Source of the DNA: Amoebophrya sp. A120 | Taxonomy: Eukaryota; Protista; Dinoflagellata | NCBI GenBank assembly: GCA_905178155.1 | Contig: CAJINV010000001.1 | Span: forward strand, 155,079 to 219,078 | Direction: 5' to 3' | DNA: 64,000 nucleotides | Shown: one piece after another, positions 8,300 through 51,019 of the stretch | Numbering within the stretch: position 1 is the first letter of the stretch | Layout of the letters: each line of letters opens with the position of its first letter | Position numbers and translations under genes: made by a program | Notes under the pieces: model-generated | What the model saw: the letters and a program-made list of their open reading frames with translations, nothing else | Databases searched by the model: none | What the model was told of the DNA's origin: nothing

Positions 8300-8632
8300 G
8301 CGCTGGCCATTCGGGCCATTCGAGCCATTCGCGCGGGCCGCCCGGGAGCGGCCGGCGCACCGTTCAGGGGCAATCCATTCGGCCCATTCGTGCGCGCGAA
8401 CGGCCCGAATGGGTTGAATGGGTCGAATGGATCTAACGGCCTGAATGGCTCGAGTTTTCGGTCCATTTAGGCCCGCCAGGTGGGCCGCTCGACCCATTCG
8501 CGCCCCGCGAATGGGTCGAATGGCTCGAATGGGTCGAATGGGTCGAATGGCTCGAGTGGATTTCCGGCCGTTTTTCGAATGGGTCGAATGGCCCGCGGCT
8601 GAACGGGCCCGCGGGCCGGCCGGGCCGGCCTA
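8300..8632. repeat. Internal array of 9-bp units (CGAATGGGT / CCATTCGAG) in both orientations, matching the TIR subunit
   Basis: e.g. CGAATGGGTCGAATGGCTCGAATGGGTCGAATGGGTCGAATGGCTCG at ~8508-8555; the same motif makes up both TIRs. Confidence 0.85.
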
Positions 8633-14173: not shown

Positions 14174-17100
14174 TCAAGCGCTGCGCCTGCGCCGACGTGG
14201 ACGACCATCAGGATCAAGTGGACGACCATGATCATCAGTTGGTTGTTGTTTCAACTTTATGAATTGGTACCCCAGACCCGCCAACAAAATGCCAAATGCA
14301 ATGACAATTAGGTGGAGGTCCTGGATCCCCGTCAAAGGAGTGAGATAGTGTATAGACAATATGACTGTGAAAATGGTAATAAAAGCCATCAACATGAGGA
14401 AGGATCTTATTGGGTATGCGTATGCCGTTGCTGGAGCCCGACGTAAATTGTTCCATGTTCCTGCTGCGACCCAAGAAAAAAAGTTCCATGCTAGTCCTGG
14501 TGCTGGCGCTAAAAACGTGTGCCAACAGGAGGAAAACAAAGCAGAGCAACATGATGTGCACGCTGCGCAGCGGTCCTTCCTTGTGCTCGGTGTTACTACA
14601 GTTTCCGGGGGTCCCGGAGGGCCTCCCGATCCGGGGCGCAGCGCCCCGGAGTGTTGCTTGGGGAGTTCGGTAGGCAGCAACTTTGCATCTTCAGCAGACG
14701 CAGTGCCTGTCGCTCGTACCGGAGCACCGACAAGGCCGCGGCGGGCCGCTGGGGTCGTCCACCAACGCGCCGCTGTAGTTGCGGCTTGATATCTTCCAGG
14801 GCGGATTGTGCTGCCTTTCGGATTCGAGCGCGCTTCTCCATTTTCGTCCCCCGAGTCCAGAGTACTTGCATCTTCACTGTCGGCGGCCCTGCGTCGCTGC
14901 CCCTGCTGTTCCGTGACGGGTCGAGACGAGTACTCTTGGCGCTGCCAGAAGTAGTGGTCTTGGCGCATCTGAATGTGAGAGCTTGATGACTTCGCGCGAC
15001 CCAGGTTCTGCTTGGCCAGGATTTCAAAAAAGGACGCCCCCGCGCGTTTGTGCCCTGGCGACCGCGCAGTGAATTGTGGCACCGTCGGAACGCCTTGTGC
15101 CTTTTTCTCCTCTGCTGGATTCAGGTACCGTTTCCCCGATGGCAGTATGCAACTGCAAAAGCAAAGGCGCAAGTGGCATCGGCAGTATCTTCCAGTAAAT
15201 CTTATAATGTAAATGTATAGATATCTTTATCCAATCTGGATGATAAAGTTTCGCATCTGGCAGATACGAAACTTTTTTTAAACAGTAAGCACAAAGAAAG
15301 TTCACTCACGGCAGCGGCACGCTTAGAAGAGCGCATCATGCAATAACGATGAGAAACAGATGAGTGATGAATCGCAAAAGAGAATAGACATCTAGATGAT
15401 GTATGAAGATCAACATGGAAAACGAAAAAACTACTACGGCGTGCTTTATGTATTCATCTTGCACTTGGCACGGGCGCGGTGCTTCTTTTAAGGGGGATAT
15501 CTAAGACGCGGCCCCATTCCGCTTGCAGGACCGGGAGGACGTCGACGAAGCTCTGTACCAGGCGCCGATCCACACCGCCATCCTTAGTCTTCCGCGAGCG
15601 AGATGGGCCCGTCTTGTCCGCCTCATCTCTTCCGAACAGAAACTCTCCCGTGCGCCGAAAGGAATCGCCTACGCCGCCTGCGATCGGAGCGTGGTGTATT
15701 AACTCCGCCAAAGTTGTAGTTGTAGGAGCTGTACCGCCAGCGGCGTTTCTGTTTCGGCTTTGGTCCTCCTGCTCTTTCGCTTTCCTCCCGCTGACCGACA
15801 AAAAGCCTTGCACGAGCAAAAGCATCGCGACAATTACGCCGGCAAATTGAGCCTCCGGCGATGCTGCTATCCTGCTGGGAAAAAGAATCATACTCGTTGC
15901 TTGGCGTGCCAATTTTTCAATATCGCAGTGTTGCATGACACGGAGGCACTGGGCCCTCTTAGTTTAAGTCGCTCCGCACTAGCTCTTCGACTAGCGAAGC
16001 ATACAAAAAAGTCATTGCAAAGGCAAGCCGCGGACGGGCACGTGGAGAGCCGATGCATAAGGAAACACAAAGAAGGCAATTTCTAAACCTACCTGCGAGT
16101 AGAAGATAGTTTTGCATTCAATAGACGCCACCATCTCGGAAAATGATGAAGCTGGACCGGAAAGAACAGTGGCAGTGCGTGGGGTAGTTTTCGTCGGAGC
16201 CGCCTGGTTTAGTATTACATCTGCATCAGCGCGCTCTTTCTCATGGTTCTCATAGGGTTCTCGACGTGTCCTCGTCTGCTGCATCTGTTCCCGCCTGTTA
16301 CCCTGGAAGAACTGCAGGAGGCTCCCCTTTGGCGTTCTGTTCGCGATCGTTCTCGTTGTTCTCGGGATCTTCGTGTCGTGGCCGTCCTTTTCTTGTGTAG
16401 TTTCTGCCCCGAGATCGCGCGCCCTTCCCAGTGTTCCCAGGAGCCAGCCGGATAGAACGTCCACACTGGTAAAATGTTGCCAATCGATTCCCTGCACTAC
16501 GCGCTTGACAATGGGGAGCAACAATCGAGCCGGGGCTTGGTCTGGCGCGTCATTATCTTCCGCAGGCGCCCCAAACATCTCTCCAAACATGTCGAGCGTG
16601 TCGCTCACGCCGGACATTGCGCGCCTCGCCCGGCCGAAGTACGTGCCAGTGGTAGACGGAGCTGATTTTTTTCCGCCGCCTGTTCCCGTAAACAAGCCGA
16701 AGCCACGCACTTCGGGCATCAGGAGGAAACTATCCTGCATTGGAAACGCGAGCAGCTTGCTGTCCGTAGACAAAAGGTCGCGCTCCGTCAACCTAGGAAA
16801 GACGTCCAGCACCTGCAAACCATGGTAAAGCGGCGGAGCGCTATCCTGGGTACAAACGTTCCCGCTCCAACATCCTCAAGACGGGAAATCTGCTAAACAA
16901 ATCGCCTTCGCCGAGCTGTGGTTGTTGAGCATTACAAAAAATTTGGGCTAGCAGGGTAAGTAAGTAGTCTTGTTGAGGTAGTGTAACCACAACACATCAC
17001 AGATCTAGCATATATCGCTTAATATCATTTGAAGAGCATCACAAATCTGAAATAAAACACGACTAGAAATAAATGCTCCTCATTATGGAGCTGCGCATGA

Positions 17101-20100
17101 GAAACATGTTTTTTTAGGCATGAGGATTTTTTGCATGACAGTGTTGGGATGGGGACGTTTTTCACAGAATAAGCGAAGTCGGTTTCAAGTACTTTTTCGT
17201 CGGCGAAGGCCGCGAAGGTCGCCTGCAGAATCTGCTTCATCACCTATCATGATGAAAACCGCACCTGGCCCAGAACTGCTACTTGGCAGCATTTGCATTG
17301 CAAACCCGCCAAGAAAAACTAAGCACATTCCCGGACTTGCATGTATCAGCGCCGCGAATTCCCGCTGCACAAATATCCGCTGCAAAAAGGCCGAGCAACA
17401 GCGGCGTTCGTCATGTAGGAGACTAGATCAGGAAAACTCGTAATTGGTTCTTCCACGCATGGCATGCCATGCAACACAAAGATAAAGAAGAAGCACAAGC
17501 TCCTGCTTCCATTTGGAAACTTTGGGCCAAACACATTTCCCTCTTCATCTTCTGGGGAAGGTGGGGCGCTTTTCATTCCAATATCAACCCCTCAAGATAC
17601 CGCTTGGCCCGTTTCCCCAATTTCGCGCGAATTTCTCGCTCGGCGTCCCCGCGGTCCTTCGACGGAGATCCTTATAACCCTCTCACGCGGGACAACCTCT
17701 TCGGTGGTAATGATGAAGTAGGAGGCCCATGATGCAGATGCATATCATCAAGATCATCATCATGCAAAGACAAAGACAAAGACGAGTGCGCGCTGATTAT
17801 GATTTGGCACTTTCATATATATTTTTTTATAGAATGTAAACGTATATGTAAACTCATGCTGGAATATCGCCGATCTGAATGCCCTAATAGCATCTACGTG
17901 AAGTAACTTTGTGCTGGTTGCGAATGAACCAGTGTGGCTTCGCACGTTCTTCCACCTGCGGCTCATGCAAGACAATAAAGGCTCCGAAGATCAAAACACT
18001 CTCACAGTTGAGATATTTACGCGTGAGCGGGTTATAGTTGTCGCGCCGTGCTGGTCTGCCTTTTCTTCTTGCCCAAACCCGCCGGGAGAGAGGACGTTCT
18101 TGCCTTCTTGTAGTCATACTCCCGGAGCAGCGTCTTCGGAATATGCAGCCGACTGGACTGTAGGAAGCCGCGCAGCAGCCGGGCAAGGTTTTTCGCGGCG
18201 AAGTGCAAGAGGCGGTAAAACGCGTAGTCTTCCTCCAGTAGCACCCCCTGCAGGCGTTCTGTGGACACCGCTGCGCCGCTGCTTCTACCCGGAACGAGAG
18301 TTCGCGCAAAGCTCGCTCGGTCGTAGAAAACTCGGTAGACTCGGAGCTGTCCCCGCCGCTTTTTTTTTTCCCCTTTTTTTCGCACCAAGCCGGCGGGCGC
18401 GAACACGCGAAAGCCCCCGACACGCGCTGTGTCCAATAAATGGCTGCCGCTCGAAGTCGCACTGGCCGACGGCGTGGTCGCAGAGGCCGAGGCCTTAGCT
18501 TGTGGCCCAGCAGCAGGCGGAGCTTTCGCAACATGGGTGTGGCTTTCATCCTGCTGCCCCGGAGCCGCTAGCTTCGTAGCTCCCGGGGGGAGAAGTCGGA
18601 GAGTATCGGCGGCCAAGTCCTCTAGGAAGATACGCGGAGCGTACGCCTGTGGCCCACGAAGGCCAAGGAAGTTCTCCAGGGGGACCGCTTCCAAGGAGAT
18701 CCGAGCAACCTTCTTTCCGCGTGAAAAAAGGTCCTCCGGACTGGCGAAGGTTGGTTGCGGCTGTTTCTGCCCGCCATGATGATTCGCAGCTTTTTCCTCC
18801 GTGCCGACCACATGATAAGCCACCTGCGTCACCGCAAAAACAGATCCGGGGCTGAACATGAGCTGCGGACTCGCCGAATTAGTAGAGCTGCTGAAGACGG
18901 GGATTAGGAACGTCACCAGGTCACCGGCTTGCGGGAGTGGAAACAGGTATTGCAGGTTGATCTGAAACTGTTGCTGTTGCAGATGATTGGGATGTTTTAT
19001 TTCAGTCTTCCCTGGCGGAAGCTTCACGGCGACGGGTGAGGCGAAATGCACCGGCAGCGAAAGGTCTCGCCGTGTCGTCGATTTCTGATTCCGAACGTCG
19101 CCTTTTAGCACCTTGCCGACCTGCCCCTGCAGCGCAGTCTGCAGCGGACCTTGTAACTCCGCGAACAAGGGCGACGGCCCTTCGATCGGTGCCGGAGTGC
19201 TCCCACCAGCCGTTTGTTGACCACGGAATATGACCTGTACGAAAACGGCTGCGCCTTCGGGTCGCAGGAGACCGAGGTCGTTCCCTAGAAACCGATTGAC
19301 GTTCCCGGTGTCGGTACTCAAAGCCGCCGTCAGCCCGCCACTTTCGCCTCCTGCCGCCCCGTTGAGGGATTGGGTCAAGAGGCGCAGCGGCGCTTTGATC
19401 TCTTTGCTGGAAAGAAACTCTTTGGCGGATGATCCACCGCTCGCCATGCTGATCATCCCGCGCGTCACCTGTCGCAGCGCCACCGCCCCCAGACCGTTTG
19501 CAAAGAAGTCTACCCACGTCTCCGACGGTCTTCTTGCGCCCCTGCTCGAGGACAGCTGCTCTTCTTCCTCGGTGGTCGTTGCGACGTCCTGTTCGTCGTG
19601 CTTCCTTGTTCTATGGGGCGGAGAGAGCACCACAGCGCCCCCCTACACGATAGTATTTGTATGGAGTTTTTAATATTTTCACAGCAAGATGATGAAGACG
19701 AACAGCTGCAACAGCAACACTGCAGCTCCTTCGGCATAACTTTAACTACACACCTACACGTGGACCACTAGAGCGGTATATTATATCGCTTGTCCGCGTC
19801 GCCGCCGCGAGTCTTTTTATTAAATAAACAGTGGCGAACGACAAGGGAGGACATCGGACAAGGTGGAGTGGATTTGGAATGTTCTTCATGTTCTTGCGTG
19901 ATGTACTTACAAATGAGGGACAGGCGCTGGTGGAGCTGTGCACTCTCATACCTCACTCGCGGCCGGGCAGGGGACGACGAGGAGGATCGTCCTGCGGAAC
20001 GTGAACGACCTGCGCGGCCTGACATCAGCTGCAGCCAAGTCATTTTATTCTTGGCGTGTTCGCTAGGCCGAGAACGTCGGCTTGGAGCTGTCGTTTTGGC

Positions 20101-21699
20101 CGCGAAGTAGACGGAGGTGGTAGAGTTGTCCGCCGGTGCCCCCAACTCGTCGGCGTCGCGGCCCCGGAGGTGCCGACCACCGCGGCCATAGTAGTTCTGG
20201 ACGTGCTGGGGCTGCTGGGCGCTCTCCTCTTCGTAGTGGTTTCTGTCATCTGTACCACTGCCTACTTGCTCTTGCTCGTCCTGCGCAAAGAAGCTGCTGA
20301 GCTGAGAGATGCGGCCGTCAGGCAAGGTCTCCACGGAGAGAAAGTCAGGCCCGTTATTTCTTGGCCCCACCCGCGGTTCTTCTTTTTGTTTTTGATGTAC
20401 GTGATCCTGCTCTGCTCGCGTAGTTTGTGGTCCCGTCGCAACTGCACTTCTGGTGGTGCCAGTATCAAATGCAAATACGTCTGGGTCCTCTGGAAGGGTG
20501 CGAATCTGTGATGCAGCTAACTCTGGCCACCACAAAAATCTGTCTTGCGCGGCCCACAAAACCTGGTCTCTTTGTGCGACCCGGACTACGATTTCTCATG
20601 CCGCGGACAAGGCATGCCCACGCGCACCAGGTGATCGAAAAATCTCTGATGCTAGTAGGACCTGTATAATGCCAGACGCAGACCTTCTGTTTCATACAAA
20701 AACAGCAGAGCAAGAATTTGCACTCTTCCAGACGACCCAGAGGACATGTATGCAGTTGATAGGCAGCCTTTCTCGCTTCGTCACTACGTCGAGATGGCGT
20801 CGCTGACAGGTCCTGCGTATCTTCAACAGCTGCGCGCAGGTCAGGCTGATTGCTTTGAGGGGACAGTTCGTAATCATATCCACTGCGAATCGAGGATCGC
20901 TAATGCCAATCTTGCAATTGCATGACAGAAAATTATAAGGCTTGTTCTGTCCACCTGCATCTGAATGCTGACCAAAACATTGCAGCTCGTCTACTAGTGC
21001 TATTTGGAAAAATCTGTGTGTCAACATGCGATTTATTATTACAGATTGAAATTGATGATAAACAGAATCATAAGAGCGATGCTTCTTTTGCAAATCATAT
21101 TTCGTTGTGCAGATGCTTCTGCCGCCCCGCCTGCCGCTCGCTCACGCCGCCCGAGAAATCTATGAGTGTGCACAACTTCCGCTCCCCCTCATCTGGATAG
21201 CATCGATAACAATTTGAAGAATACACAGCAACCCAAGCTCTGGCATTTATTTGTTTCAAATATGCCGGCTTTGCATGTTGACAAACTCGAACAGGATTGT
21301 AGTGCTATTTGGGCTCCTCCCGGAGCCTGCTGTCACGCAAGCAATGCCAAGCGGCAAAGCGTGGACTTGCAATGCCAATGCAGCAAGTTGTACTTGATGT
21401 TGATTTTGCATGACAAATGGGGGGAAGAGCGAGGGGTTGCGCATGACTGTCATAAATAAAGCCTCACTTCTTGTTCTGCTAAAATTGTTCTCGCTCCTTT
21501 CATCATCTCCTGGCGTCGCAGCTGCGCTGGCGATCACGGTGGGGACGAGGCAACACGAGAGAAAACAGATCATGGCGCACCATGAAGCACGTGCTCGCTC
21601 CTGACGTTGTCGTGTCCGTACCACATTGAACTTGTTCAAGAAGCAAGGACGCCAGCAGCACAAGCTTGCCAAGGACACAGGCACCGTCTTATTCACCAT
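14174..21699 (-). CDS. Unknown protein, paralog A (hydrophobic N-terminus, two C-terminal hydrophobic segments), multi-exon
   Basis: Exons are collinear with paralog B, e.g. RPSETWVDFFANG, STERLQGVLLEEDYAFY, FPRLTERDL, LPVLQAEWGRVL, YLNPAEEKKAQ. Confidence 0.75.
15146..15499. mobile_element. Introner, specific to paralog A (direct repeat degraded)
   Basis: Splits GRVL/PSGKRY, which is contiguous in paralog B (GRVLSSGKQY). TAT...ATA ends. Confidence 0.6.
16842..17171. mobile_element. Introner, specific to paralog A
   Basis: DR AGCGC/AGCGA; empty site GGCGGAGCGAAGTCGG at ~30333 in B. Confidence 0.8.
17245..17583. mobile_element. Introner, specific to paralog A
   Basis: DR TCACC/TCAAC, IR ATGAAAACCGCACC / GGGGCGCTTTTCAT; empty site at ~30420 in B. 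Confidence 0.8.
17673..18036. mobile_element. Introner (TATAACCC end family), specific to paralog A
   Basis: IR TATAACCCTCTCACGCG...CGCGTGAGCGGGTTATA. Confidence 0.75.
19611..19951 (-). mobile_element. Introner-derived intron with GT-AG ends, paralog A
   Basis: Sense GTATGAGAGTGCACAGC...CCCCATAG (family C end); removal gives in-frame RV-RTRK. Confidence 0.6.
20463..20761. mobile_element. Introner family A (TATCAAATGCAAA..TCTGGGTCTGGAAG)
   Basis: Family A IR ends, DR GCCAG/GGCAG. Confidence 0.75.
20877..21099. mobile_element. Introner shared with paralog B (37080-37303)
   Basis: Same position, and shared internal blocks TCCA(C/T)CTGCATCTGAA..TGACCAA and AGAGCGATGCT. Confidence 0.7.
21161..21457. 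mobile_element. Introner family C (TATGAGTGTGCACAAC), specific to paralog A
   Basis: DR AAATC/AAAGC; splits SE/DFS, which is contiguous in B. Confidence 0.75.
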
Positions 21700-24693: not shown

Positions 24694-27600
24694 TCAACGT
24701 GTAAAGTCATTTTTCACGACGGCACAGCCAAGAAGTAGACCCACGGGAATGGCGACAATGAGAACAATATGAAACGGTTGAATTTGAATAGGAGCGATGT
24801 GGATGTCCCCTTGCGCAGCTAGCCCTACTAACGCGACCAGAGTATCAATGGAAAACTGCAAAATGTTTCATACCTATAAAGTACTAGCTAGCACGGTCGG
24901 GCACTGTTATGAGCACCATGGCGATCATTCTTGGCATTTTTGGGCGTCCCCACAAGCACGGTCGGACCGTGCTAGAAAAGCACCCAGCCGCGTGCTAGTA
25001 GTGCCTATGTGGGCGAAAAAGTGAATATATATCCAAAAAATGGGCCGCATATTTTCCGGCTTCGAAATATGCGGCCCACTTTTCGGATATATATTCACTT
25101 TTTCGCCCACATAGGCACTACTAGCACGCGGCTGGCTGCTTTTCTAGCACGGTCCGACCGTGCTTGTGGGGACGCCACAAAATGCGAAGAATGACCGAAA
25201 TCGCGCTCATAACAGTGCCCGGCCGTGCTAGCTAGTACTTTATAGGTATGAAACTTTTCTACATTTTCCATCCCTAGACCAGAGCTGCGAGCGCAACAAG
25301 CATAAGAATGAAAACTATTTTGAATATGGAACCACACCCGGCGACCGAATCCAGAAACTTCAAGCACGATCGTGCTACAAAATTACATGGTCGCATTACG
25401 TGTTTGCAGCACTCCATTTTTCCCCGGGCCGCGGGGGAAGCACCTTCACCGCTTCCTGTGGGACTCCCGTTTCCGTTGACGACCGGTTGTGCCGCTTCGG
25501 CGGCTCCAGCAGGCACCGGTTCGCCGACGACCGGTTGCTGCCGCCGCGGCATCAAGCGAACCGCAGCACGGATTTTCGTCTTCCGCAAGTTCGACCAGGC
25601 GCTCGTCCGCGGCAACCAATTCCCGCTACCAGGTGTTGCCCCTTCTTCACCTTCTGCGGGGCGCGCGGGTGCCGGTTCGCCTCCAGAACCTGCATCGATG
25701 TGTTGCAAGGACGGCGAGTTCGACTGGGCGGGCCGCGGCGACTGATTTGTTTTTCTTTTTCCTCGCTGCGAGCGTCGGCTGCCGATATTTTTTCTATAGC
25801 GCCGGCTGTAGAACGGCGCTGAGCGTCGCTTGGTCCTCCTAGTGCTCTGGCCGCTTCGCGCTTCTTGTGCCGGAGGGTCGACCACTGAGGCAGTCGTGGC
25901 CGCCGTACTAGTTGCTGGAGTCTGTGGGTCGTTCGTCGGGGCGGGGCGCAACCTAGTCCTCAGATTTTTCAAGAGACTGATAGGGTTCAAGTTGATCCCG
26001 GGGCCAGCGGCGGGTTCATCGTATCCCGCAGAAAATAGCAGGTGGCAGGCCAGGGGCAGGGCATATTTGTATATGCAAAAATAAACACGTACATACACAG
26101 ATGAAAAATCTGTCATGCCTGTGCTCTTTAGGATACAACGCAGTACATATTTTCACTTTATTTTTGCATATTTATTTTTGCACTACAAATATGAACATGA
26201 TTATGACCTGCCTGCTTTTTTCTCTACTGGGATACTCCGGCTTCTTTTCTCTTCTGCTCCCGGTCGTTCGACCCGGCGTCGCTAGACCAAGACCACGAGG
26301 GAAAATTCATCCCCCCGCCGCTAGGTGTCATTCCTCGAGCGGGGCGCGCGGGTGCGATATGGACGCGTCACCAGGATCGAAATCGGCAACGTTGAAATAA
26401 TTTGTCATGCACAGATTGCCTGTATTGCAGAGCAGGCAAGAGATGAGGGCAACTGAAAGCCTGTTTGGGGTTAGCTAGAGAGAGAGCTGCTGAAGTAGCA
26501 CGACAAGAGATTTTTTCTTTCTCTCAACAGCGTGACAAACTGGATGTAGCTGATGCCGAAATTTGTCATGCGCCGCTTAGAAATTGGGCTTCCAACTGGT
26601 TGTATCGGTTTTAATTTTGTGCATCAAACTCAAATAAAAGCGGTTCAACTTTGTTGATTTCGATCCTGACGCTTCCATATGCGACGGGGCCATCGTTGTC
26701 TCTCCCCCAATAAGCGCTTTCTTCTTTTTTACTCTGTCCCCGGTTGCTGGACGAGAGTATGGGAGTCTCAAACGATACACTCTCAACTGCTACATGAATT
26801 TGTGTTCTTGCAAATATGCCAAAAGTCAAAGGACGTAGATTGAGATTGTGATTGCATCCCCAGCATTACAAATTCGGCACAGATCTTACTGCTGTTTACC
26901 CCTTCATCAAAAATTTGTCATGCGCAGCAGCTTCGGCGTGTCGTGGATCGATCTGGATCGGATGTTGATGTTAATTTTGCGTGACAAATCAATTCGTGTA
27001 GCAGTAACGTTTGAGAATGTAGCCACGTTTGAGAATCCCATAGAAGATGCGGGGCCGGAATTCGACCTCCCCCACGGAAGTTTACTCCACCACCCGTATG
27101 CGCTGGAAATACGTGTGGGCCTGGAAGGACGCGAACTTGTGATGGGCATTTCACAACGCCGCGCACAAATAATCCCTCGTCATGCATAGGCAACAAAAAA
27201 CACCCACAACTTCCTGTCACCAAAATGTAAATGGGGGATTTGTAGTCAACATGCGGACTAGAAGGCATTGCGGAACCTTCTCGGAATCTGTGATGCTGGG
27301 GCGTCCATGACGGAACTTGGCCTTCCTCTGTGTCATGCAAAAACAAACAGCATGACAAAAGTGCGCACCCTTCCAGACCCAGACATATTTGCAGTCGATA
27401 ACCCGCGGGCAGGTACTACCCCGTCTGCAGGGACCTCGGTTGCGATTGCAGCAGCAGCGCCACCAGGTCGTGGTCCTAGGTTGTGTGTAGCAAAAGTGGT
27501 CTCCCTGCCGTTCCTCGCTTGATGTGGTCCTCTCCTCGGCGGAGCACCGAAATAAGTATGGGCCGGCGTTTGATACCATTTTTGGACGAAGTACTTTCGT

Positions 27601-30600
27601 GATGGAGGCCGTCTTCCAGGTTTGTTGTTTTCCATGATCTCGGCCCGGTCGCCCTCGCCGCGAGCATCACGACCGCCTTGAGTCTGACCCCGCGGCAGCT
27701 TGCGCGCTGGCCGCGGCACAGTGGGTCGCGGCACGGGTGGCACGCTTTGCGCCTTTTTCTCCTCTGCCGGATTCAAGTACTGTTTCCCCGAAGATAAGAC
27801 GCGGCCCCACTCCGCTTGCAGAACCGGAAGGACGTCGAAGAAGCTCTGTACTAGACGCCGATCCACACCGCCATCCGTAGTCGTCCGCGACCGCGGAGAT
27901 CCCTGATCTTTCGCGAAGAGAAACTCTCCCACGCGGCGAAAGGAATCGCCTACGCCGCGCGCGATCGGGGCGCGGTGCATCAACTCCGCCAAAGTTGTAG
28001 TTGTAGCGGTTGTATGCACTGCAAATCCAGTATCGCACTCGTGGGAATATTAAATCGTAGGCATGCATTGCAAATGGAAATGCTATTCTGAAGAAAGTTT
28101 AAAAAGGTAAATCCACGTTACATTCTCATTTTTCACGCTGAGAAAATTTGTCCTGCGATTTACACTACGCACGATATTACTTTTGCAATGCATAAGATGC
28201 CGTCGACCCACCAGGTGCGTTTCTATTTCGGTTTTGGTCCTGCTCTTTCGCCTTCCTCCCATGCTTTGCAAAAGTGTCTGGGTCTGGAAGAATACAAACT
28301 TGTGATGCGCATTTCAGAACACAGAAAAATCCTCCATGCATAGTCAGCAAAAGCTGCCCACTTTCTGTCACCAAAGTGGGGGATTTGTGATGCGGATTCG
28401 GCAATGCGGAAGCTTCTGGAAACCTGTGGCGCTAGAGCTTCCATGCCAGACCTTCTGTGTTATGCAAAAACAGCATGACTCTTCCAGACCCAGACATTTT
28501 TGCAGTTGATACCTCCCGCTAAACGACAAAACGCCTTGGAAGAGCATAAACATGCCGATGAATACGCCAGAAAATTGAACCTCCGGCGATGCTGCTATTC
28601 TGCTGGGCAAAAGGATCACACTCGTTGGCGCACCAATTACGTTTATATATGGTTGCAGTACTGCATGACAAGGAAATCGGTCAATTTACATTTATTTTAT
28701 TATGTCGAGGTAGTCGGTCTTACGCACTAGTTCTTCGATTAGCAAAGCATACAAATAATTGCAAGAACTGGACATGGACGGGTTCCCCGCGTCGCGGGGA
28801 ACCGATGCATATTAATTAACGGAACACGAATGCAATTCCAATAAATATAAAAGTCCTACACCAACCGGAGAGGGAGAGCAGATACTTTTGCATTCAATAG
28901 AAGCCGCAATCTCGAAAAATGAAGCTGGAGCAGAAACGGCGCGTGGGGTTTTCGTTTTCGTCGGAGCCGCATGGGTCAATACTTCTACGTCAGCGCGCTG
29001 TACCGTGGGGTCGACGTGTCCTCGTCGGCTCTCGTGGGGTCCTCGACGTGTCCCCGTCTGTTGCTTCTGTTTTCGCCTGTTGGTGTTCCCCTGCAAGAAC
29101 TGCAAGAAGCTCCTTCTTGGCGTTCTGTGCGCAGCCGTTGTAGTTCTCGGGTCCTTCGTGTCGTGGCCGTCTATGGATGTGTCAGGATCGAAATCGGCAA
29201 AATCGAAAAATTTGTGATGCATAACATGTAGAGCACGACTGAAGGCCTGTATTGGGAAGCAGGCATATGAGACCGATTGTAAGCCTGTTTAGGGGTATGC
29301 AATGTGCTGCCCGAGTAGCATGACAGGAGGAGTCTTCTTTGCCCAAACAGCATGACAGACTGGATTGGGGTGCTCCCGAAATTTGTCATGCGCCAGTTGA
29401 AAACTGAGGCTCCAACTGACATCGATTCTGTGCATGACAAATTTTTCGATTTTGTCAATTTCGATTCTGACACTCCCATACCGTCCTTTTCTTGTGTAGT
29501 TTCTGCCCCGAGATCGCGCGCCCTGCCCAGTGTTTTCAGGAGCGAGCCCGAGAGAGCGTCCAAACTGGTAAAATGTTGCCAATCGATTCCCTGCATTTGT
29601 GCACCTCAAAAGTACCTGCACCATGATCGCAGCGCCAGAGAGCCTGCTGATACTGTGCCATTGATCACGCAGGTGCACTGCGCAATAAATTTAAATCTAC
29701 CTTGCGGGACGATTTATTAGCAGCAAAGTTGTAGTAGTGTCAGTGGCTGAAACTGAATATGAGAAACTGCAAGAGCATTACAATTACTAGCACTGGCAAG
29801 AAGCAAAGTACACGGTGAAGCTGTAGTTGAAGAAGTGCACTATAATTGTCAAATCGAATGTGAGTTTGTCACTCATGCGATGTTGCTGGTAGAGAATGCG
29901 AGAGCGACTGCGACTGAGGAGATGTGCATGAATGTAGTAAGGTGAAAATGTTGGGTCGTGAACAAGTGCGATAGTACTTTTGCACAGGATAGCACTGCGC
30001 GCTTGAGATTGGGGAGCAACAACCGAGCCGGGGCTTGGTCTGGTGCGGCGTCATCTTCAGGCGTCCCGAGCATCTCACCAAACATGTCCAGGGTGTCGCT
30101 CACGCGGGACATTGCGCGCTTCGCCCGTCCAAAGTACTTCTTGATAGTGGACGGAACCGATTGCTTTCCTCCGCCCCCGCCCTCCGCAAACACCCCAGAG
30201 GTGCCCCGCACTTTGGGCATCAAGAGGAAACTGTCCTGCATTGGAAACATGAGCAGTTTGCTGTCGGTAGACGAAAGGTCGCGCTCCGTCAACCTGGGAA
30301 AGACGCTCAGCACCTCCGCACCACGGTAAAGAGGCGGAGCGAAGTCGGTTCGCTGTATCTTCCGCGCTACGTCCTTTTCGTCGGCGAACGCCGCGAAGGT
30401 CGCCTGCAGAATCTGCTTTATCAACGCCTCAAGATACCGCTTGGCCCGCTTCCCCAGCGTCGCGCGAATGTAGTCTCGCTTGGCGTCCTCGCGGTCCGCC
30501 TTGATCGACGAAGATTGTCGCGCCGAGGTGGAGGTTCTTGTTCCCTTCTTGTTGTAGTCATACCCGCGAAGCAGCGCCTTCGGAATATGCAACCGACTGG

Positions 30601-33600
30601 ACTGGAGGAAGCCGCGCAGCAACCGGGCAATTTTTTTCGTTGCGAAGTGCAGGAGGAGGTAAAACGCGTAGTCTTCCTCCAGTAGCACCCCCTGGAGGCG
30701 TTCTGTGGACACCGCTGCGCCGCTGCTACGTGAAACGAGAGTTCGCGCAAAGCGTGCCCGGTCGTAGAAAACCCGGTAGACTCGGAGCTACCCCCGTAGT
30801 ACCCGTTATCGTCAAGAAAAATACCCCCTGTCCATACTTAAATAATACTAAGCGAAAATCAAAATATGCGCTGTTGATTTGTGTCCACTACACATCGACC
30901 ACGTCTTGCAAGAAGGCAACTTCGGCTCGCCGCCGCATTCTAATGAATTCTGGATTCCGTAGCCGTTTGACCACCTTTATGGCAGCCGTGTGTCAACATC
31001 ATGCGACACAGCTACTTATGGTTGTACGTGAATTACATGATCTGCCGGCGTCAGGGATTTATTATTGTGTACACAAATTCGGCATCCCGAGTTTCGGTTT
31101 TGATTGTAGTGCTAGTGGGGAGCAGGTGGTTTTTTCATTTTGTTGATTTTGATGCCCGCTGTTTTATTTTTTTCCCGGTTTGCGCCGAGCCGGACGCCGT
31201 GAACACGCGGAAGCCCCCAACTCGCGCGCGCGAAGAACTGCCGCTCGAAGTCGCGGCTATGGCGTTCTCAACCGTTACATTTTCAACTGTTCTTACATGG
31301 GTTTGTGATGCAAGAATGGCGAAAGAAGTCAAAGCAAGGAGGTTGCACCTGTAGCATTACGAATTCCGCACAGATTTAGGTGCTGTTTAGACTTGTTAAA
31401 ATTTACCATGCGAAGTAGCTTCGCCTTGTGGTCGCGAGTGTTGATGTTCGTTTTGCATTACAAGTCATTGTATAACAGCTGAGAATGTAACAGTTGAGAA
31501 CGCCATAGCGGTGGCCGACGCTTTGGAGGCTTGTGAAGGTTCGGCAGCCTTCGGCGCATGGGCGTAATTTTGATCCTGCAGCTGCCCCGGGGCAACTGGC
31601 TGCGCAGTCCCTGGGGGGAGAAGCCGGAGAGTATCGGCGGCCAAGTCCTCTAGGAAGATATGGATGCGTCAGGAATGAAATCGACAAAGTTGAAATGATT
31701 TGTCATGCATAAAATGCAGACCACAAAGCGCCTGTCTTGCAGGGTAGGCAAGTGAGGCAGATCGTAAGCCTGTTGGGGGGTAGACACTGGATTGGTAAAG
31801 TAGCACGACAAAAGGCGCCCTCCTTACCCAAACAGCATGACAAACGGGATTTCGGCTTTACCCAAATTCATCATGCACCACTCGCAAACTGGGTATCCAT
31901 TTTATGCATGGGAGATTATTTCAACTTTGACGATTTCAATCCTGGCACTCCCATAGACGATACGCGGGGCGTACGCCTGTGGCCCGCGAAGGCCAAGAAA
32001 ATACTCCAGAGGGACCGCTTCTAAAGAAATCCGGGCAGCCTTCTTGTTATTCTTATTTCCGCGTGAAAAAATGTCCTCTGGACTGGCGAAGGTTTGTTGT
32101 TGCTGCTGTTTCCGCCCGCCATGATCATGATTCGCAGCTTTTTTATCCGTGGTATCAGCCACGTGGTAAGTCAGCTGCGTCACCGCAAAAACAGCGCCGG
32201 GGCTGAACATGGGCGGTGGGCTCGCCGAGGTAATATATCCCACAGAAGAAGTGAAAGGGAGGCAGCACCACATAAATTAAAATTTGCAATGCAAAAACAC
32301 AAAATAAATCTCTCGTCGCGCGTGCTGTCCTAATAAGCAGCATGCTATACCATCGCCCATGACAGATTTATTTTGTGCGATTTGCGTCACGAAGATCAAT
32401 CATGATCTGCCGGTCTTTTTCTGTGGGATACGGTAGAGCTGCTGAAGACGGGGATTAGGAACGCCACCAGGTCACCGGCTTGCGGGAGTGTGTGGCGTTC
32501 TCAACTGTTACATTCTCAATTGTTACATGAATTTGTGATGCAAGAATTGCAAAAGTGAAAGGGGGGAGGTTGCACCTCTAGCATTACAAGTTCTGCACAG
32601 ATTTAGGTGCTATTTAGCCTTTCAAAAATTTGCCATGCGAAGTAGCTTCACCTTGTGGATGTTGATGTTCCTTTTGCATCACAAATCATGTAACAGCTGA
32701 GAATGTAACGTTTGAGAGTCCCATAAAGTGGAAACAGGTATTGCAAGTTGATCTGAAACTGCTGCTGTCGCAGGTGCTGATCACGATCGTTTTTACCTAT
32801 TTTTTGAGAAGTCTTCTGCGGCGGCAGCTTGACGGTAACGGGTGAGGCGAAATGCACCGGCAGCGACAGCTTCCTCGGCGACGATTTCTGAAGATTCCAA
32901 ATGTCGCTTATGGGATTCTCAAACGATACTCTCTCAACTGTTACATGATCTGTCATGCAGAATGCTGATCAGGATCAGCATCCACATGATCAGGCTACTT
33001 CACATGACAAATTTGTGAAGCAGGGCTAATGAAAATCTGTCGTGCCAAATTTGTAATGCGAGAGGTTCAAGCCCCCTTCTCTCACGACTTCACTGTTTCT
33101 ATTCTTGCAAGAACAGCTAAGAGTGTAACGTTTGAGAACGCCATATCGCTCTTGAACACCTTGCCGACCTGTCCCTGTAGCGCTGTCTGCAGCGGACCTT
33201 GTAACTCCGCGAACAACGGCGGGCCTTCGATCGGTGCCCCGGCCGTTTTATGCATTGCAAAAGTAATATCGCACTCGTATAAATGCATGACAAATTCCCT
33301 CAGCATGAGAAATAAAGATTGTAGTGCGGATTTACCTTGAGAAAAAAATTTGTAACGCATGATTGCAATACGAGTACGATACTTTTGCACAGGATACGTT
33401 TGATGTTGACCACGGAATATGACCTGTACGAAAACAGCTGTGCCTTCGGGTCGCAGCAGGCCGAGGTCGTTCCCTAGAAACCGGTTCACGTTCCCGGTGT
33501 CGGTACTCAAAGCCGCCATCAGCCCGCCACTTTCGCCTCCTGCCGACCTGGTGAGGGATTTGGTCAAGAGGCGCAGCGGCGCCTTGATCTCTCTGCTAGA

Positions 33601-36600
33601 AAGAAATTCTTTGGCGGAGGATCCACGACCGCTTGCCACGTTGAACATGCCGCGCGTCACCTGTCGCAGCGCCACTGCCCCCATACCGTTTGCAAAGAAA
33701 TCTACCCACGTCTCCGACGGCCTTGCGTTCTTCTTCTTCTCACCTCCTCGTCGGGAAGTAAAGCCAGCATGTTCTTTGGAGCGCGCACGACCTGACATCA
33801 GCTGCAGCCAGGTCATTTTTTCGCCGCCTTTGGTGAAAATAGTTTTAAAGACTATAGACAGATAAGGACTTGACTCAAAAGCTGTAGGGAAGAGTTGCGA
33901 AAACCTTAAACAGGCTCTAAAGTTGCGGCTCAACCTGCAGCAAACCTGGAGCAAACCCCTAGGGCTTTTCAAAATGGCGCTGCTTGCTACTCGCGAAAGC
34001 GCACGCTATTCGGCCCAAAAGATGGGGGTCGACCCGTAGGGAACAAGAAAAAATCACGAAAAGCGCGACACTTTGGAAGCGCTGAACCTGCATGCTATTA
34101 CGACAAAGCCTGGAGCTTTTCTGGGACTCGAGCTCTAGAGCTTTTCACATACTTGCGCTTTTATTTTTCGAAAGCGCATGCTGCTGTGGAAATATTTCCG
34201 ACAAATTCTGCGACTTGAGCTGTAGGGGTTCAGCGCGATGAACGACAAAGAAACCCCTGGGCGCTGCAAAAATAGCCCGAGCCCTACACGCAGCGACGGC
34301 CCCCGCGCTCAGAAGAGAAGCCCTGCAGCGAGCGCCCTGCAAGCAAGCATGCCTGGAGATCGGCCTGCAATGCCCCAAGCAGTCCTCTGCGCCCTCGGCT
34401 GCACACCTTCCCTGTAACCAACGCCCCGAGCCCGGGCCATTCACTACGCGGCCCCTGCGGAGAGGGGGGCCGCCTCGGCGCCTACTTCGACGCCTATTTC
34501 TACGCCTACCCCTGCGCCTACGCCTACCCCTGCGCCTACCCCTACGGCAACCCCTACGGCTACCCCTACCCTACGGCTACCCCTACCCTACGGCTACCCC
34601 TACGGCCACCCCTACGGCTACGGCTACCCCTACCCCTACCCCTACCCCTACCCCTACCCCTACCCCTACCCCTACCCCTACCCCTACCCCTACCACGTCC
34701 CTGCCCCTACTACGCCGACCCCTACCTCTACGCCTACTGCTACGCCTACTGCTACGCCTACTTCTGCGCCTACTTCTACGCCTGTGGCAGGGGGCGCTAT
34801 TTTTTTCAGCAAAGCCTCCCCCGTCGCCACATATGATTTTACGGCGCTCCATAGGCATACAAGCTTGCACACGCACAACAGATCTGTGCGCGCGTAGAGC
34901 GAGGCGCCGCCTAGAACTCAGCTAGCTCCTACGCAGAACGAAGGCAGGAGAAAGGTGGCCGCAGGAGCAGCCGCGCGCGGCCATGGATTCAGTCCTTGGC
35001 GATGTGGCCTCAAGGTACGTGACACGCAAGCCCCCGCCGCGGCTTTGGTGTATGCGTATGGGCAGGCGCTTCAGGATAAATCAGCGACGGTCTCAGGATA
35101 AATCGATGACGCTCTGACTAGCTTTGGAAGCAAGGGCCCCACGCGGGCGGCCGATACAGGATAGGCTGGCACCTTGTTCGGCGCCTTTGAATTTATTCCC
35201 GGCCAGGCTGTGACGCAAGCCTCCGCTTCGGCCGGATTCGCGATGTCGCTGCTCGCGACGTAACTCCTGAAAATCTGCGAACTTGCGCAAACGAAAAGCG
35301 GGGGCGGGCTTGGGGGGCCCCCTTTCATGAGGATACCAACGGGGGGTCGGTAGCCCTGCGAGAAGGCCTTAAAGGGGGGGCCTGGAGGACCTCGGAGGCA
35401 CCCCAACCCAAGGGGATTTCGGCTTGCAGCCCAGGAGGGCGCTCTGTTGGTCTCCGTGCAAAACAGTCGGGGCGAAGAAACGCCGCGTGGGACCAAGGGC
35501 CGGAAGAGCGCCGCGGCCGGCCGCGGCATCAATGAATGTCATCGGCAAGACCGCGCACGGCTTTGAGAGAGTTATTCTATCAAAGGCCACGCGTGGGCGC
35601 CTGTTTCGCCTGTTGGGGCGTGGGCCTATTGTTGGCTCCAGTTCGCAGCGCCTGTGGCTTTGGGTTGGCCGCGTATAATTGCTGTCATTTTAAACGAACC
35701 GGCAGCACTGCAGGGGCTGTCTGTTGGACATCTACGCCGGCCATGACCGACGAGCGCACGCAAAGCCGTGACGCAATGCGCCACCAATCCTGCCTTCAGA
35801 CTACCGAGCCCAGAATACCGCGGCAGGCGCTGTTGCTACGCGGTCGATTTCCACCGCCCACGAGGTATCTCCTATCTTATCTAGCGACGTCGACGGGTGA
35901 GCCATATGTAGCCGAAAACAGAGCAAAGCTTTTTGAAAAAAAGCGCTTCCCATGCATTGCCCTAGCGCCTACCCCTGCGCCTACGTACCCCTGCGCCTAC
36001 GCCCGCCCCTACGGCTACCCCTACGGCCAGGCCTACCCCTACGCCTACCCCTACCCCGACCCCTACCCCTACTACGCGCGCCCCTACCTCTACGCCTACT
36101 TCTACGCCTACATACTTCCACCCCTACTACGCCTACCCCTACTTTTACGCCTACTTCTACACCTACTTCTGCGCCTACTTCTACGCCTACTTCTACGCCT
36201 ACTTCTACGCCTACGCCTACTTCTACACCTACCTCTACGCCTACCCCGCCGCCTATTTCTGCGTCTAATTCTACGCCTACTCCTGCGCCTATTTCTACGC
36301 CTGCGCCTATTGCTGCGCCCTCAGCTACGCCTACTGGCCAGCTGCGTTCGCGGGCAACCGGGCCCCCAGTAGTCGGCGCGGCCCACTAATCCCCCCGCCC
36401 GCTCCTCGGGCGACGCCGGAGGCATTTTGATGGCGCCCCCGCGCCGCTTTGATTGAGTTTATTTGTTAAGGGCACACAGCGGAAGGCAGTGCCTATGAAT
36501 TGCAGTCGCTTTCGGTCTTCTTTGGGCCGGTTTTTTGCTTCATTGATTCAAGCCGCCGACCGCATGGGGACCAGGGGCGGAGCCCGTGCAGGTCTCGCAG

Positions 36601-37634
36601 GCTCCATCCTCGGCGACTTCCATGCACTAGATATCGACAGACCCTACAAAACCTACAAGCCTTCGAGTCAGCTCATCTATGTGTCTATAGTGCCTCAATT
36701 ATGAAGAAGTTGCCGCGCCGTTGTGCCAACACGGCGGCGCGAGTGCAACATATGATCACTGGGACGAGCAGCCGTCGTTTTTGCCGCCAAGTAGACGGAG
36801 CTGGTGGAGTTGTCCGCCGGTGCGGGTGCCCCCAACTCCTCGTCGACGTCGCGGCCCCCGAGGTGCTGACCGCGGCCATAGTAGTTCTTGATGTGCTGTG
36901 CGACGTTCTCCTCTTCCTCGTAGTGGTTTCGCTCATCTGTACTACTGCCTCCTTGCTCGTCATGCTCATCCTGCGCAAAGGAGCTGCTGAGCTGAGAGAT
37001 GCCGCCGTCAGGCAAAGTCTCCAGGGAGAGAAAGTCAGGTTGAAGTTTGTTTGTTCTTGTTGGCCTTGGCCCTTCATCATATCCACTGCAAAGAAAGCAT
37101 CGCAATCTTACTTTTACTTTATCAGCGGCAGTTTTGCATGACAGAACAGATAGGGGTCGTTCATGTGATGATGTCCATCTGCATCTGAACAATGGTGACC
37201 AAGACAAATCAAGTGCGCTGCTCTTCTTCTAGTTCTATGTATATAGGAAAATTCTGTCATGCGAAGATTTGATCGAAGAGCGATGCTTTTATTGCAGTGC
37301 ATATTTTATTACCCAGTAGATGTTTCTCCCCCGCATGCCGCTCGCTCTCGCCGCTCGAGAAGTCCTCACTTCTGCTAGATCTAAAACCTTTCTCGCCTAC
37401 TTCCCTTTCATCATCTGCACTAGTTTGTTCCGTCGCAGCTATGCTGCCGACCACGGTAGGAACCTCCACTCGCAACCGCAAATAGCAGGGCGAGAGAAAC
37501 CAGATGGCGCCCAATAAAGCACATGTTGCTCGCTGAAGCTGACGTTGTCGCCGTATCACTTTCAACTGCTTTGGCGGTGGACGACGCCAGCATAATATGC
37601 TGGAGAAGGACGCAGCCACCGTCTTGCTCAGCAT
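24694..37634 (-). CDS. Unknown protein, paralog B; many introners plus two larger transposon insertions
   Basis: Collinear with paralog A. At the junctions checked, the frame is restored by removing the IR/DR elements. The last exon ends ...IQPFHIVLIVAIPVGLLLGCAVVKNDFTR* (stop 24694-24696). Could be a pseudogene if the large inserts are not spliced. Confidence 0.65.
24843..25276. mobile_element. 434-bp hAT-type foldback MITE with 8-bp TSD
   Basis: Near-perfect ~210-bp arms. TSD GACCAGAG at 24835-24842 and 25277-25284. The right end reads TAGGGATGGAAAA, resembling the Ac terminus. Confidence 0.9.
26022..26234. mobile_element. Introner family D (TATCCCACAGAAAA)
   Basis: IR TATCCCGCAGAAAATAGCAGG...CCTGCTTTTTTCTCTACTGGGATA. 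Confidence 0.7.
26358..26679. mobile_element. Introner family F (TATGGAYGYGTCAGGATCGAAATCG)
   Basis: Perfect DR TGCGA; siblings at 29172 and 31659. Confidence 0.8.
26758..27042. mobile_element. Introner family E (TATGGGA.TCTCAAACG)
   Basis: IR TATGGGAGTCTCAAACG...CGTTTGAGAATCCCATA. Confidence 0.75.
27097..27400. mobile_element. Introner family A
   Basis: Right end TTCCAGACCCAGACATATTTGCAGTCGATA; interior similar to 28260-28511. Confidence 0.7.
28013..28194. mobile_element. Introner family B (TATGCACTGCAAAAGTA..TCGCACTCGT), specific to paralog B
   Basis: Family B IR ends; absent at ~15730 in A. Confidence 0.75.
28260..28511. mobile_element. Introner family A, specific to paralog B
   Basis: Perfect DR CCTCC; empty site TTCGCTTTCCTCCCGCTGACCG at ~15776-15797 in A. 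Confidence 0.85.
29172..29480. mobile_element. Introner family F, specific to paralog B
   Basis: Perfect DR CCGTC; empty site GTGGCCGTCCTTTTC at ~16378 in A. Confidence 0.85.
29598..29991. mobile_element. Introner family B-like, specific to paralog B
   Basis: DR GCATT/GCACT; empty site CCCTGCACTACGCGC in A. Confidence 0.75.
31258..31507. mobile_element. Introner family E, specific to paralog B
   Basis: DR GCGGC/GCGGT, IR TATGGCGTTCTCAAC...GTTGAGAACGCCATA. Confidence 0.85.
31659..31955. mobile_element. Introner family F, specific to paralog B
   Basis: DR GAAGA/GACGA; empty site CTAGGAAGATACGCGG in A (~18622). Confidence 0.8.
32236..32430. mobile_element. Introner family D, specific to paralog B
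   Basis: IR TATCCCACAGAAGAAG...CTTTTTCTGTGGGATA. Confidence 0.75.
32491..32725. mobile_element. Introner family E, specific to paralog B
   Basis: DR GAGTG/AAGTG; close sibling of 31258-31507. Confidence 0.8.
32909..33145. mobile_element. Introner family E, specific to paralog B
   Basis: Perfect DR TCGCT. Confidence 0.8.
33249..33396. mobile_element. Introner family B, specific to paralog B
   Basis: Perfect DR CGTTT; absent at ~19210 in A. Confidence 0.85.
34480..34790. repeat. Hexamer array (CCCCTA / CGCCTA / CTTCTA)n
   Basis: Visible directly; pure (CCCCTA)n at ~34627-34692. Confidence 0.95.
35960..36335. repeat. Second hexamer array, same orientation as the first
   Basis: (CCTACG / CCTACC / CTTCTA)n visible directly. 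Confidence 0.95.
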
Positions 37635-50819: not shown

Positions 50820-51019
50820 ACGCGGCAAGCAAAGCGAAGGGGGCCGGTTGCGAAGCTTATTCTGGGGCGGCTTCGGCGGCCGGCGCAAAGAAAGCCCCCG
50901 CCCCTGGATGGGGATGAGACTCACGCTTCCGGGGGCTTGTTCGCGCGGTTTTGCCTCGCGCCCCCCCGCCCATGCCATGCACCAGAAGCCGAGAGGCAAA
51001 AGCGTGCCCGGCCGAAACG

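What the first reader, a model, noticed from the sequence alone, without database searches (positions are those of the whole stretch)
14174..37634. Tandem paralogs with almost non-overlapping intron sets: filled and empty sites side by side
Seen: alignable exons, with about 6 introners unique to A (15146, 16842, 17245, 17673, 19611, 21161) and at least 10 unique to B (28013, 28260, 29172, 29598, 31258, 31659, 32236, 32491, 32909, 33249). At the sites compared, the other paralog shows one copy of the 5-bp DR. Inference: the DR is a true 5-bp target-site duplication and these introns were gained by DNA transposition after the duplication.
Basis: partly seen in the sequence, partly recalled or inferred. 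Interest (0 to 1): 0.8.

Follow-up and report, generated by a model that had tools for sequence, protein, structure and literature searches.

The report
Gene twins with swapped transposon introns
Two side-by-side copies of one gene in the marine parasite Amoebophrya A120 share only 2 introns, while 7 are private to one copy and 12 to the other; these are an already published kind of jumping-DNA intron, most of the second copy's set likely arrived after the duplication, and a few of the first copy's set look old enough that they were likely lost from the twin instead.

Summary
Observation confirmed and extended. Minus-strand paralogs A (14174-21699, identical to a public 1560-aa Amoebophrya A120 protein) and B (24694-37634, one internal TAG) are at dS 0.36. 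Over the alignable part they share 2 introns; 7 are A-only, 12 B-only. All are published A120 introners (TAT...ATA inverted ends). Transcript-type contigs skip 9 of 9 predicted A introns, at one register: 1 base before the 5' TAT, 4 after the 3' ATA. The scan noted this register before on other DNA of this genome. The flanking repeat is exactly 5 bp, and the empty sites hold one copy, so target-site duplication is supported. Gain after duplication is well supported for B (repeats 45/55 intact; 8 of 11 have closer relatives elsewhere than the shared introns have to each other). It is not shown for A (18/35, as decayed as the shared introns; 0 of 7). An empty site cannot tell gain from precise loss. 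Two B junctions that follow the hairpin stem rather than TAT hint at how the cut is placed. A third paralog, whose DNA I could not get, would polarise the sites. Known class; useful test case.

The parts
14174..21699 (-). Gene A, 10 exons, 1560 aa, no known domain
   Evidence: Spliced model equals P0001 letter for letter; Pfam 0 hits
24694..37634 (-). Gene B, 20 exons, 1686-codon frame with one internal TAG; likely recent pseudogene, still transcribed and spliced
   Evidence: Model contains P0003 and P0004 letter for letter; 5' exon and intron 37076 are my model only
30788..30790 (-). In-frame TAG at codon 671 of B; A and paralog C have Gln
   Evidence: no difference listed in RNA-type or DNA-type contigs covering it
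15142..15500 (-). A-only intron, repeat 1/5, clean empty site in B at 27793; candidate loss from B
   Evidence: Joint with no ambiguity in 4 of 4 runs
15864..16124 (-). Shared intron (homologous to B 28595-28900), repeat 3/5
   Evidence: Joint in 3 of 4 runs; alignment
16838..17172 (-). A-only intron, repeat 4/5, empty site in B at 30338
   Evidence: Joint in 2 of 4 runs
17241..17584 (-). A-only intron, repeat 4/5, empty site in B at 30421
   Evidence: Joint in 2 of 4 runs
17669..18037 (-). A-only intron, repeat 2/5; B site at 30514 equals the spliced junction; candidate loss from B
   Evidence: Joint in 3 of 4 runs
19608..19951 (-). A-only intron, repeat 1/5, site not alignable
   Evidence: Joint with no ambiguity in 2 of 4 runs
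20459..20762 (-).
   Evidence: Joint in 2 of 4 runs
20873..21100 (-). Shared intron (homologous to B 37076-37304), repeat 2/5
   Evidence: Joint with no ambiguity in 3 of 4 runs
21157..21455 (-). A-only intron, repeat 2/5, 3-base indel at the B site
   Evidence: Joint in 3 of 4 runs
24838..25276 (-). B 3' intron: long palindrome flanked by an 8-bp repeat, removed as element+5 in the public model
   Evidence: no RNA laid here
26018..26235 (-). B 3' intron, repeat 3/5
   Evidence: Public model P0004
26354..26680 (-). B 3' intron, repeat 5/5, family of 29168 and 31655
26754..27043 (-). B 3' intron, repeat 2/5, family of 31254/32487/32905
27093..27401 (-). B 3' intron, repeat 5/5
   Evidence: Loose end of X1 contig jumps to 27091
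28009..28195 (-). B-only intron, repeat 3/5
   Evidence: Contig piece ends at 28008, 141-base arithmetic; P0004
28256..28512 (-). B-only intron, repeat 5/5, empty site in A at 15784; the only GT..AG intron of 28
28595..28900 (-). Shared intron, B copy; 3' cut shifted 3 bases, following the stem
   Evidence: 141 observed against 138 by the TAT rule; extra Ala in P0004
29168..29481 (-). B-only intron, repeat 5/5, empty site in A at 16382
   Evidence: P0004
29594..29992 (-). B-only intron, repeat 4/5, empty site in A at 16494
   Evidence: P0004
30803..31146 (-).
   Evidence: 251 observed against 242 by the TAT rule; P0003
31254..31508 (-). B-only intron, repeat 4/5, 81% identical to 32487
31655..31956 (-). 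B-only intron, repeat 4/5
32232..32431 (-). B-only intron, repeat 2/5; junction pinned to the 1+4 register
   Evidence: 8 of 8 differences of an X4 contig laid on A equal B spliced at this register
32487..32726 (-). B-only intron, repeat 4/5
32905..33146 (-). B-only intron, repeat 5/5, same family as 32487 in the opposite orientation
33245..33397 (-). B-only intron, repeat 5/5, same family as 28009 in the opposite orientation
33834..36702 (-). B-only 2.9-kb intron with decayed inverted ends and internal tandem repeats; exact junction from the public model only
   Evidence: Contigs run on past 33833; P0003; only low-complexity or unremarkable ORFs by eye
37076..37304 (-). Shared intron, B copy, repeat 2/5; junction inferred from A
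   Evidence: no RNA laid, not covered by a public model

Best explanation
A and B are tandem gene duplicates of Amoebophrya A120 whose introns are short inverted-repeat elements flanked by a 5-bp repeat and removed from the RNA together with one repeat copy; most B-only introns were likely inserted by DNA transposition after the duplication, while the A-only set is likely older, part early gains and part (best candidates 15142 and 17669) introns that predate the duplication and were precisely lost from B. Steps: (1) shown: paralogy, 2 shared homologous introns, 19 private ones, splicing in A, 5-bp repeat, single copy at empty sites. (2) Inferred: a transposase acting in trans makes a 5-bp staggered cut and duplicates the target. 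(3) Shown for 10 junctions: the cut falls 1 base before the 5' TAT and 4 bases after the 3' ATA, so element+5 is removed and the protein is unchanged. (4) Inferred: the cut is measured from the terminal hairpin, probably by a relaxed spliceosome. (5) Inferred: loss by recombination with spliced cDNA. (6) Inferred: B is decaying (one nonsense codon), which may have eased its loading with young elements.
For: Splicing: 9 of 9 predicted joints in A, one register common to all, 3 pinned exactly; the prediction was noted in the same turn, before the output was seen; A model equals P0001. DNA-type contigs of X5 run through B introns that RNA-type contigs skip. Repeat length exactly 5; in 38 other candidates picked without using the repeat, positions 1-5 match in 20-26 of 38 against 4-10 outside, and nine elements of the neighbouring gene match 43 of 45. 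Same family in both orientations within B. B young: repeats 45/55; 8 of 11 have a non-homologous relative in the window scoring 0.30-0.61 against 0.22-0.26 for the shared pairs; summed DNA contig depth over most B elements is hundreds to thousands of times exon depth (not a copy number). A old: 18/35; binomial p=0.0008 against the most generous post-duplication mismatch rate of 0.23; A is not the faster lineage at protein level (35 against 48 unique changes, p=0.15); the intronic repeat bases of the shared introns are identical between A and B (10 of 10), so these positions are not hypervariable. Loss-only needs about 30-60 ancestral introns in 3.7 kb against a genome mean of 1.42 per kb (PMC7789003, section 10).
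Against: No outgroup DNA, so no site is polarised directly. The loss claim rests on two clean sites: 9 mismatches of 20 at the four clean A sites gives only p=0.025 at rate 0.23 and p=0.11 at 0.30. Three A-only introns (16838, 17241, 20459) have 4/5 repeats and fit post-duplication gain. B 32232 (2/5) and 28009 (3/5) are decayed too, and 3 of 11 B elements have no close relative in the window. Many best relatives of B elements are other B elements, so one of each pair could be an old donor. The RNA runs are contigs from one sample and one study, and their RNA status is a guess by the tool; B joints were not seen directly because the DNA run filled the table (15 of 109 shown, none a splice joint). 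The public gene models probably rest on related RNA data and are not independent. The best ungapped stem is in the predicted register in 17 of 22 introns, not all, and the 2.9-kb intron's deeper stem lies 3 bases off its modelled junction.
Confidence: 0.55

Rival explanations
1. All 19 private introns were gained after the duplication; A simply received its elements early and their repeats decayed fast.
For: All empty sites fit it; 3 of 7 A-only repeats are 4/5; intron gain outweighs loss in this lineage by the argument of PMC7789003 section 16; only two clean sites drive the loss signal.
Against: 17 of 35 mismatches exceed the post-duplication ceiling (p=0.0008 at 0.23); likelihood ratio 15-69 in favour of an older age for sites with 3-4 mismatches under a simple model; no A-only element has a close relative; it does not explain why A has no young element.
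Confidence: 0.3
2. B was largely wiped clean by conversion with its own spliced cDNA, then recolonised; most or all A-only introns are ancestral.
For: A-only and shared introns look the same age; three A-only sites lie within 152 coding bases inside one 810-base B exon; retro-transposed transcripts are mentioned for dinoflagellates in PMC7789003.
Against: Two shared introns survive between the supposedly lost ones, so at least two or three separate tracts are needed; three A-only repeats are nearly intact.
Confidence: 0.12
3. Pure differential loss from an ancestor that carried both sets.
For: Single-copy empty sites are compatible with it.
Against: Needs about 30-60 ancestral introns; 8 of 11 B elements are closer to unrelated sites than the shared pairs are to each other.
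Confidence: 0.03
4. The elements spread through RNA (reverse splicing into transcripts), not as DNA transposons, and the repeat is a by-product.
For: No transposase in the elements; PMC7789003 reports no putative transposase in A120.
Against: Members of one family sit in both orientations in the same gene and are spliced; a fixed 5-bp duplication with symmetric ends is the DNA-transposon signature; PMC12130899 attributes A120 introners to TIR DNA transposons among others.
Confidence: 0.05

Closest known systems
Introner elements of Amoebophrya sp. A120 (Farhat et al. 2021, PMC7789003; read: abstract, sections 10, 11, 12, 16, passages, supplement legends only)
   Same: Inverted ends beginning TAT + 7 bases + A run, 3-5-bp direct repeats (5 bp in the legend of Fig. 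S19), non-canonical splice sites, repeated families, about 240 bases; same organism by protein identity.
   Different: That paper calls the splice sites variable relative to the hairpin, says gain cannot be told from loss, and compares only distant strains. Here: filled and empty sites at dS 0.36, one fixed register, an age split between paralogs. Figures S19-S23 were not visible and may already show the register.
Introners as non-autonomous TIR DNA transposons (Gozashti et al. 2022 PMC9860276 and 2025 PMC12130899; Polarella classes, bioRxiv 2020.10.14.339549; review PMC11282704; passages read)
   Same: TIR plus target-site duplication, insertion neutral at mRNA level, tens of introns in one A120 gene.
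   Different: Those families carry or recruit GT/GC/GA and AG sites; here 1 of 28 introns is GT..AG. Both Gozashti screens filter out paralogous introns, so this comparison was not their method. Dataset S2 of the 2025 paper (TSD calls) was not read.
Nonconventional introns of Euglena (PMC12501133, passages read)
   Same: No GT-AG; paired motifs at a fixed spacing from each cut; repeats hide the junction and non-slidable cases reveal it.
   Different: Motif CAG...CTG with spacers 3 and 5-6 and a purine starting the next exon, against TAT...ATA with spacers 1 and 4; unrelated lineage; tested by knock-in there, untested here.

Membership tests
A120 introner element (Farhat 2021) | Terminal inverted repeats able to pair | tested here: met
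   End duplexes of -7.6 to -41.9 kcal/mol in 22 of 22; best ungapped stem at the predicted register in 17 of 22
A120 introner element (Farhat 2021) | End motif TAT + 7 bases + A run | tested here: met
   Of 44 ends: T 42, A 42, T 44 at positions 1-3; A in 26, 26, 37, 31 at positions 11-14; ends were chosen by this motif, so partly circular
A120 introner element (Farhat 2021) | 3-5-bp direct repeat at the borders | tested here: met
   63 of 90 matches confined to 5 positions; decayed to 3/5 or less in 6 of 18
A120 introner element (Farhat 2021) | Member of a repeated family | tested here: inconclusive
   Met for 8-9 of 11 B-only and 2-3 of 7 A-only within the window; no genome held for a full search
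A120 introner element (Farhat 2021) | Removed from RNA at non-canonical sites | tested here: met
   9 of 9 A joints, none GT..AG
MITE / non-autonomous TIR DNA transposon | Target-site duplication of fixed length, single copy at the empty site | tested here: met
   12 clean sites, 54 of 60 bases; one 3' element has an 8-bp repeat
MITE / non-autonomous TIR DNA transposon | Insertion in either orientation | tested here: met
   32487 against 32905 and 28009 against 33245
MITE / non-autonomous TIR DNA transposon | Cognate autonomous transposase with matching ends | not testable with these tools
   No genome held
Canonical U2 intron | GT/GC...AG ends | tested here: not met
   1 of 28 introns is GT..AG
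Canonical U2 intron | Spliceosome-dependent, lariat with branch point | not testable with these tools
   Needs lariat sequencing or inhibition
Euglena nonconventional intron | N3-CAG ... CTG-N5-6 | purine | tested here: not met
   Ends read N-TAT ... ATA-N4

The most novel reading that the evidence does not exclude
A120 introns turn over in both directions within one gene family: about one intron fixed per 50 neutral substitutions in B, with precise loss of older introners alongside, and the cut is placed by a hairpin ruler (1 base 5', 4 bases 3' of the stem) that ignores the boundary sequence. Its 5-base total would make only 5-bp (or 5+3-bp) duplicating elements tolerable. Two natural mutants in B, where the cut moved with the stem by 3 and 9 bases, and an 8-bp-repeat element that leaves one extra codon would be the first direct evidence for such a ruler.
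Probability: 0.3. Interest if true: 0.75.

Novelty: new member of a known kind. Interest (0 to 1): 0.5.

Why it matters
The paper that described these introns could not tell gain from loss or place the cut. A paralog pair at dS 0.36 gives true empty sites, a first local rate of intron gain, and a warning that some differences may be losses. With a third paralog on record, gain versus loss is one genomic alignment away from a test. The shifted junctions give specific, testable predictions for how an intron without GT-AG is recognised.

Tried and rejected
Whole genome: none held, so no genome-wide family counts and no DNA of paralog C. Outgroup search: word-index searches found only A120 proteins; the full HMMER scan gave three A120 proteins and one weak hit at E 6e-4; the metagenome scan with P0002 gave 69 pattern matches and no relative. 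Laying the DNA-type run with the RNA-type runs swamped the joint table for B. Protein function: Pfam 0 hits for 7 exon pieces and 4 proteins; atlas best score 0.79, chance level. An automatic repeat search picked inner inverted repeats and was replaced by the TAT...ATA reading. I first read the ATG at 20043/33817 as a second gene; rejected, since A is one open frame and contigs cross it. My first right end for the 2.9-kb intron (36751) was replaced by the public model's 36702. TAG read as Gln, as in Amoebophrya sp. ex K. veneficum (PMC12005148, passages): unlikely, 1 TAG against 181 CAA/CAG codons in A and B, and that paper speaks of other Amoebophrya as having a canonical code. The neighbouring gene looked Patched-like from memory; Pfam gave 0 of 3 pieces, so it is left unnamed. 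Literature searches found no paralog-based filled/empty analysis for Amoebophrya; subscription papers, the published Roy et al. 2023 text and figure images were not seen.
Full report
Identity and layout. The region holds two minus-strand paralogs whose exons align block by block. My spliced model of A (14174-21699, 9 introns) equals P0001, a 1560-aa unnamed protein of Amoebophrya sp. A120, letter for letter. It contains the public models P0003 and P0004 exactly, which together span 18 of the 19 introns; eight junction positions were taken from or adjusted to those models. A third paralog C (P0002, 1468 aa) lies outside the window on a contig of the same length and is the outgroup (A-B 83%, A-C 72%, B-C 70% over 744 columns). 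No homologue outside A120 and no domain was found. Divergence over 1008 codons: dS 0.36 (0.31-0.42), dN 0.137; dN/dS about 0.41 before and 0.35 after the TAG, so B's break is recent.

Observation. All 16 listed elements exist. The alignable part has 2 shared, 7 A-only and 12 B-only introns; B has 5 more in its non-alignable 3' part. The shared pairs are homologous in sequence (82% over aligned columns, scores 168 and 107 against shuffled maxima of -40 and -33), so the duplication was of genomic DNA and those two predate it.

Splicing. From contig pieces on B I inferred that the RNA keeps four bases of the upstream repeat and one of the downstream one, and noted predicted A junctions in the turn of the A lay, before seeing it. 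The lay listed 9 joints, all 9 predicted; three have no ambiguity, and one register is common to all. An X4 contig of B laid on A differs at 8 places, all 8 as expected for B spliced at this register at 32232. DNA-type contigs of X5 run through several B introns. Limits: one sample, one study, contigs only, RNA status guessed by the tool. Only 1 of 28 introns is GT..AG. Earlier unreviewed notes of this scan report the same register on other DNA of this genome; I looked them up after deriving it, and they are not independent support.

How the cut is placed (inferred). The best ungapped stem pairs intron base 2 with the fifth from last in 17 of 22 introns. Two B junctions depart from the TAT rule: 28595 by 3 bases and 30803 by 9, as contig lengths (141 not 138; 251 not 242) and public models both indicate. 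In both, an end carries a small insertion and the cut sits at or within one base of the stem register, not the TAT register. The palindrome at 24843-25276 has an 8-bp repeat but is removed as element+5 in the public model, leaving an extra codon; no RNA was laid there. Against: A's copy of the 28595 intron keeps the TAT register with a weak stem, and the 2.9-kb intron does not follow its deeper stem. A relaxed spliceosome is the likeliest agent because PMC7789003 found nearly all its proteins and no U1; this is untested.

Target-site duplication. Left and right flanks match at exactly five positions (63 of 90; permutation maximum 45). An independent set picked without the repeat shows the same five positions, and nine elements of the neighbouring gene match 43 of 45, so repeats are perfect at birth (the set of 38 includes false candidates). 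At 12 clean sites of 18 the twin holds one copy. Family members occur in both orientations in B, which favours DNA transposition over reverse splicing.

Gain or loss. B-only elements look young: 45 of 55 repeat bases intact; 8 of 11 are closer to a non-homologous element of this window than the shared pairs are to each other; RNA-type run X1 laid 91 records at 99% or more on B against 9 on A (thresholds 95 and 96). A-only elements look as old as the shared ones: 18 of 35, 0 of 7. The ceiling for post-duplication mismatch is about 0.17-0.23 per base; 17 of 35 exceeds it (p 2e-5 to 8e-4), while the four clean sites alone give p 0.003-0.025. At 17669 B's site equals the spliced junction, with three changes all in the intronic copy; at 15142 four of five intronic bases differ. 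Loss alone would need some 30-60 ancestral introns. Best reading: B gained about 9-12 introns after the duplication (about 18 per kb per unit of synonymous divergence if 12; one pair chosen for being striking), A gained perhaps 3-5 early, and B lost one to four. B's density (3.75 per kb) is above the genome mean of 1.42 (Poisson p 2e-4), A's (1.9) is not.

Comparison and verdict. These are members of the published A120 introner class (PMC7789003; PMC12130899 notes tens of introns per gene). They work like Euglena nonconventional introns in using spaced paired ends but fail that family's motif. My searches found no paralog-based filled/empty test for Amoebophrya; supplementary figure images and Dataset S2 were not seen and may hold the repeat length and register. 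Observation confirmed, interpretation partly supported, class known, interest 0.5.

Noticed in passing
window 26354-33146: Two introner families cluster inside gene B (26754, 31254, 32487, 32905; 26354, 29168, 31655) and had no match elsewhere in the window; pairs also occur in the neighbouring gene (43484/44296, 45749/47731). Possibly local hopping.
   Followed up: partly
window 30788-30790: Single in-frame TAG in B at a conserved Gln, with purifying selection on both sides; recent nonsense change most likely, read-through not excluded.
   Followed up: partly
window 24843-25276: A 434-base near-perfect palindrome with an 8-bp flanking repeat is an intron in the public model of B and leaves one extra codon.
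   Followed up: partly
window 33834-36702: 2.9-kb intron with decayed inverted ends and two blocks of CCCTAC-type tandem repeats (34468-34784, 35960-36336).
   Followed up: partly
window 42200-48200: Minus-strand gene with hydrophobic segments and nine young elements (repeats 43 of 45); Pfam found nothing in 3 pieces.
   Followed up: partly
introns of A and B: An internal motif GCAT[GCT]ACA occurs 36 times in 10.7 kb of introns and never in 9.7 kb of exons, across unrelated families and on both strands; possible transposase or splicing-factor site.
   Followed up: no
window 51000-53600: Dense low-complexity repeat array with many internal matches; not read.
   Followed up: no
window 8300-8620: Cluster of short GC-rich repeats between two plus-strand genes.
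   Followed up: no
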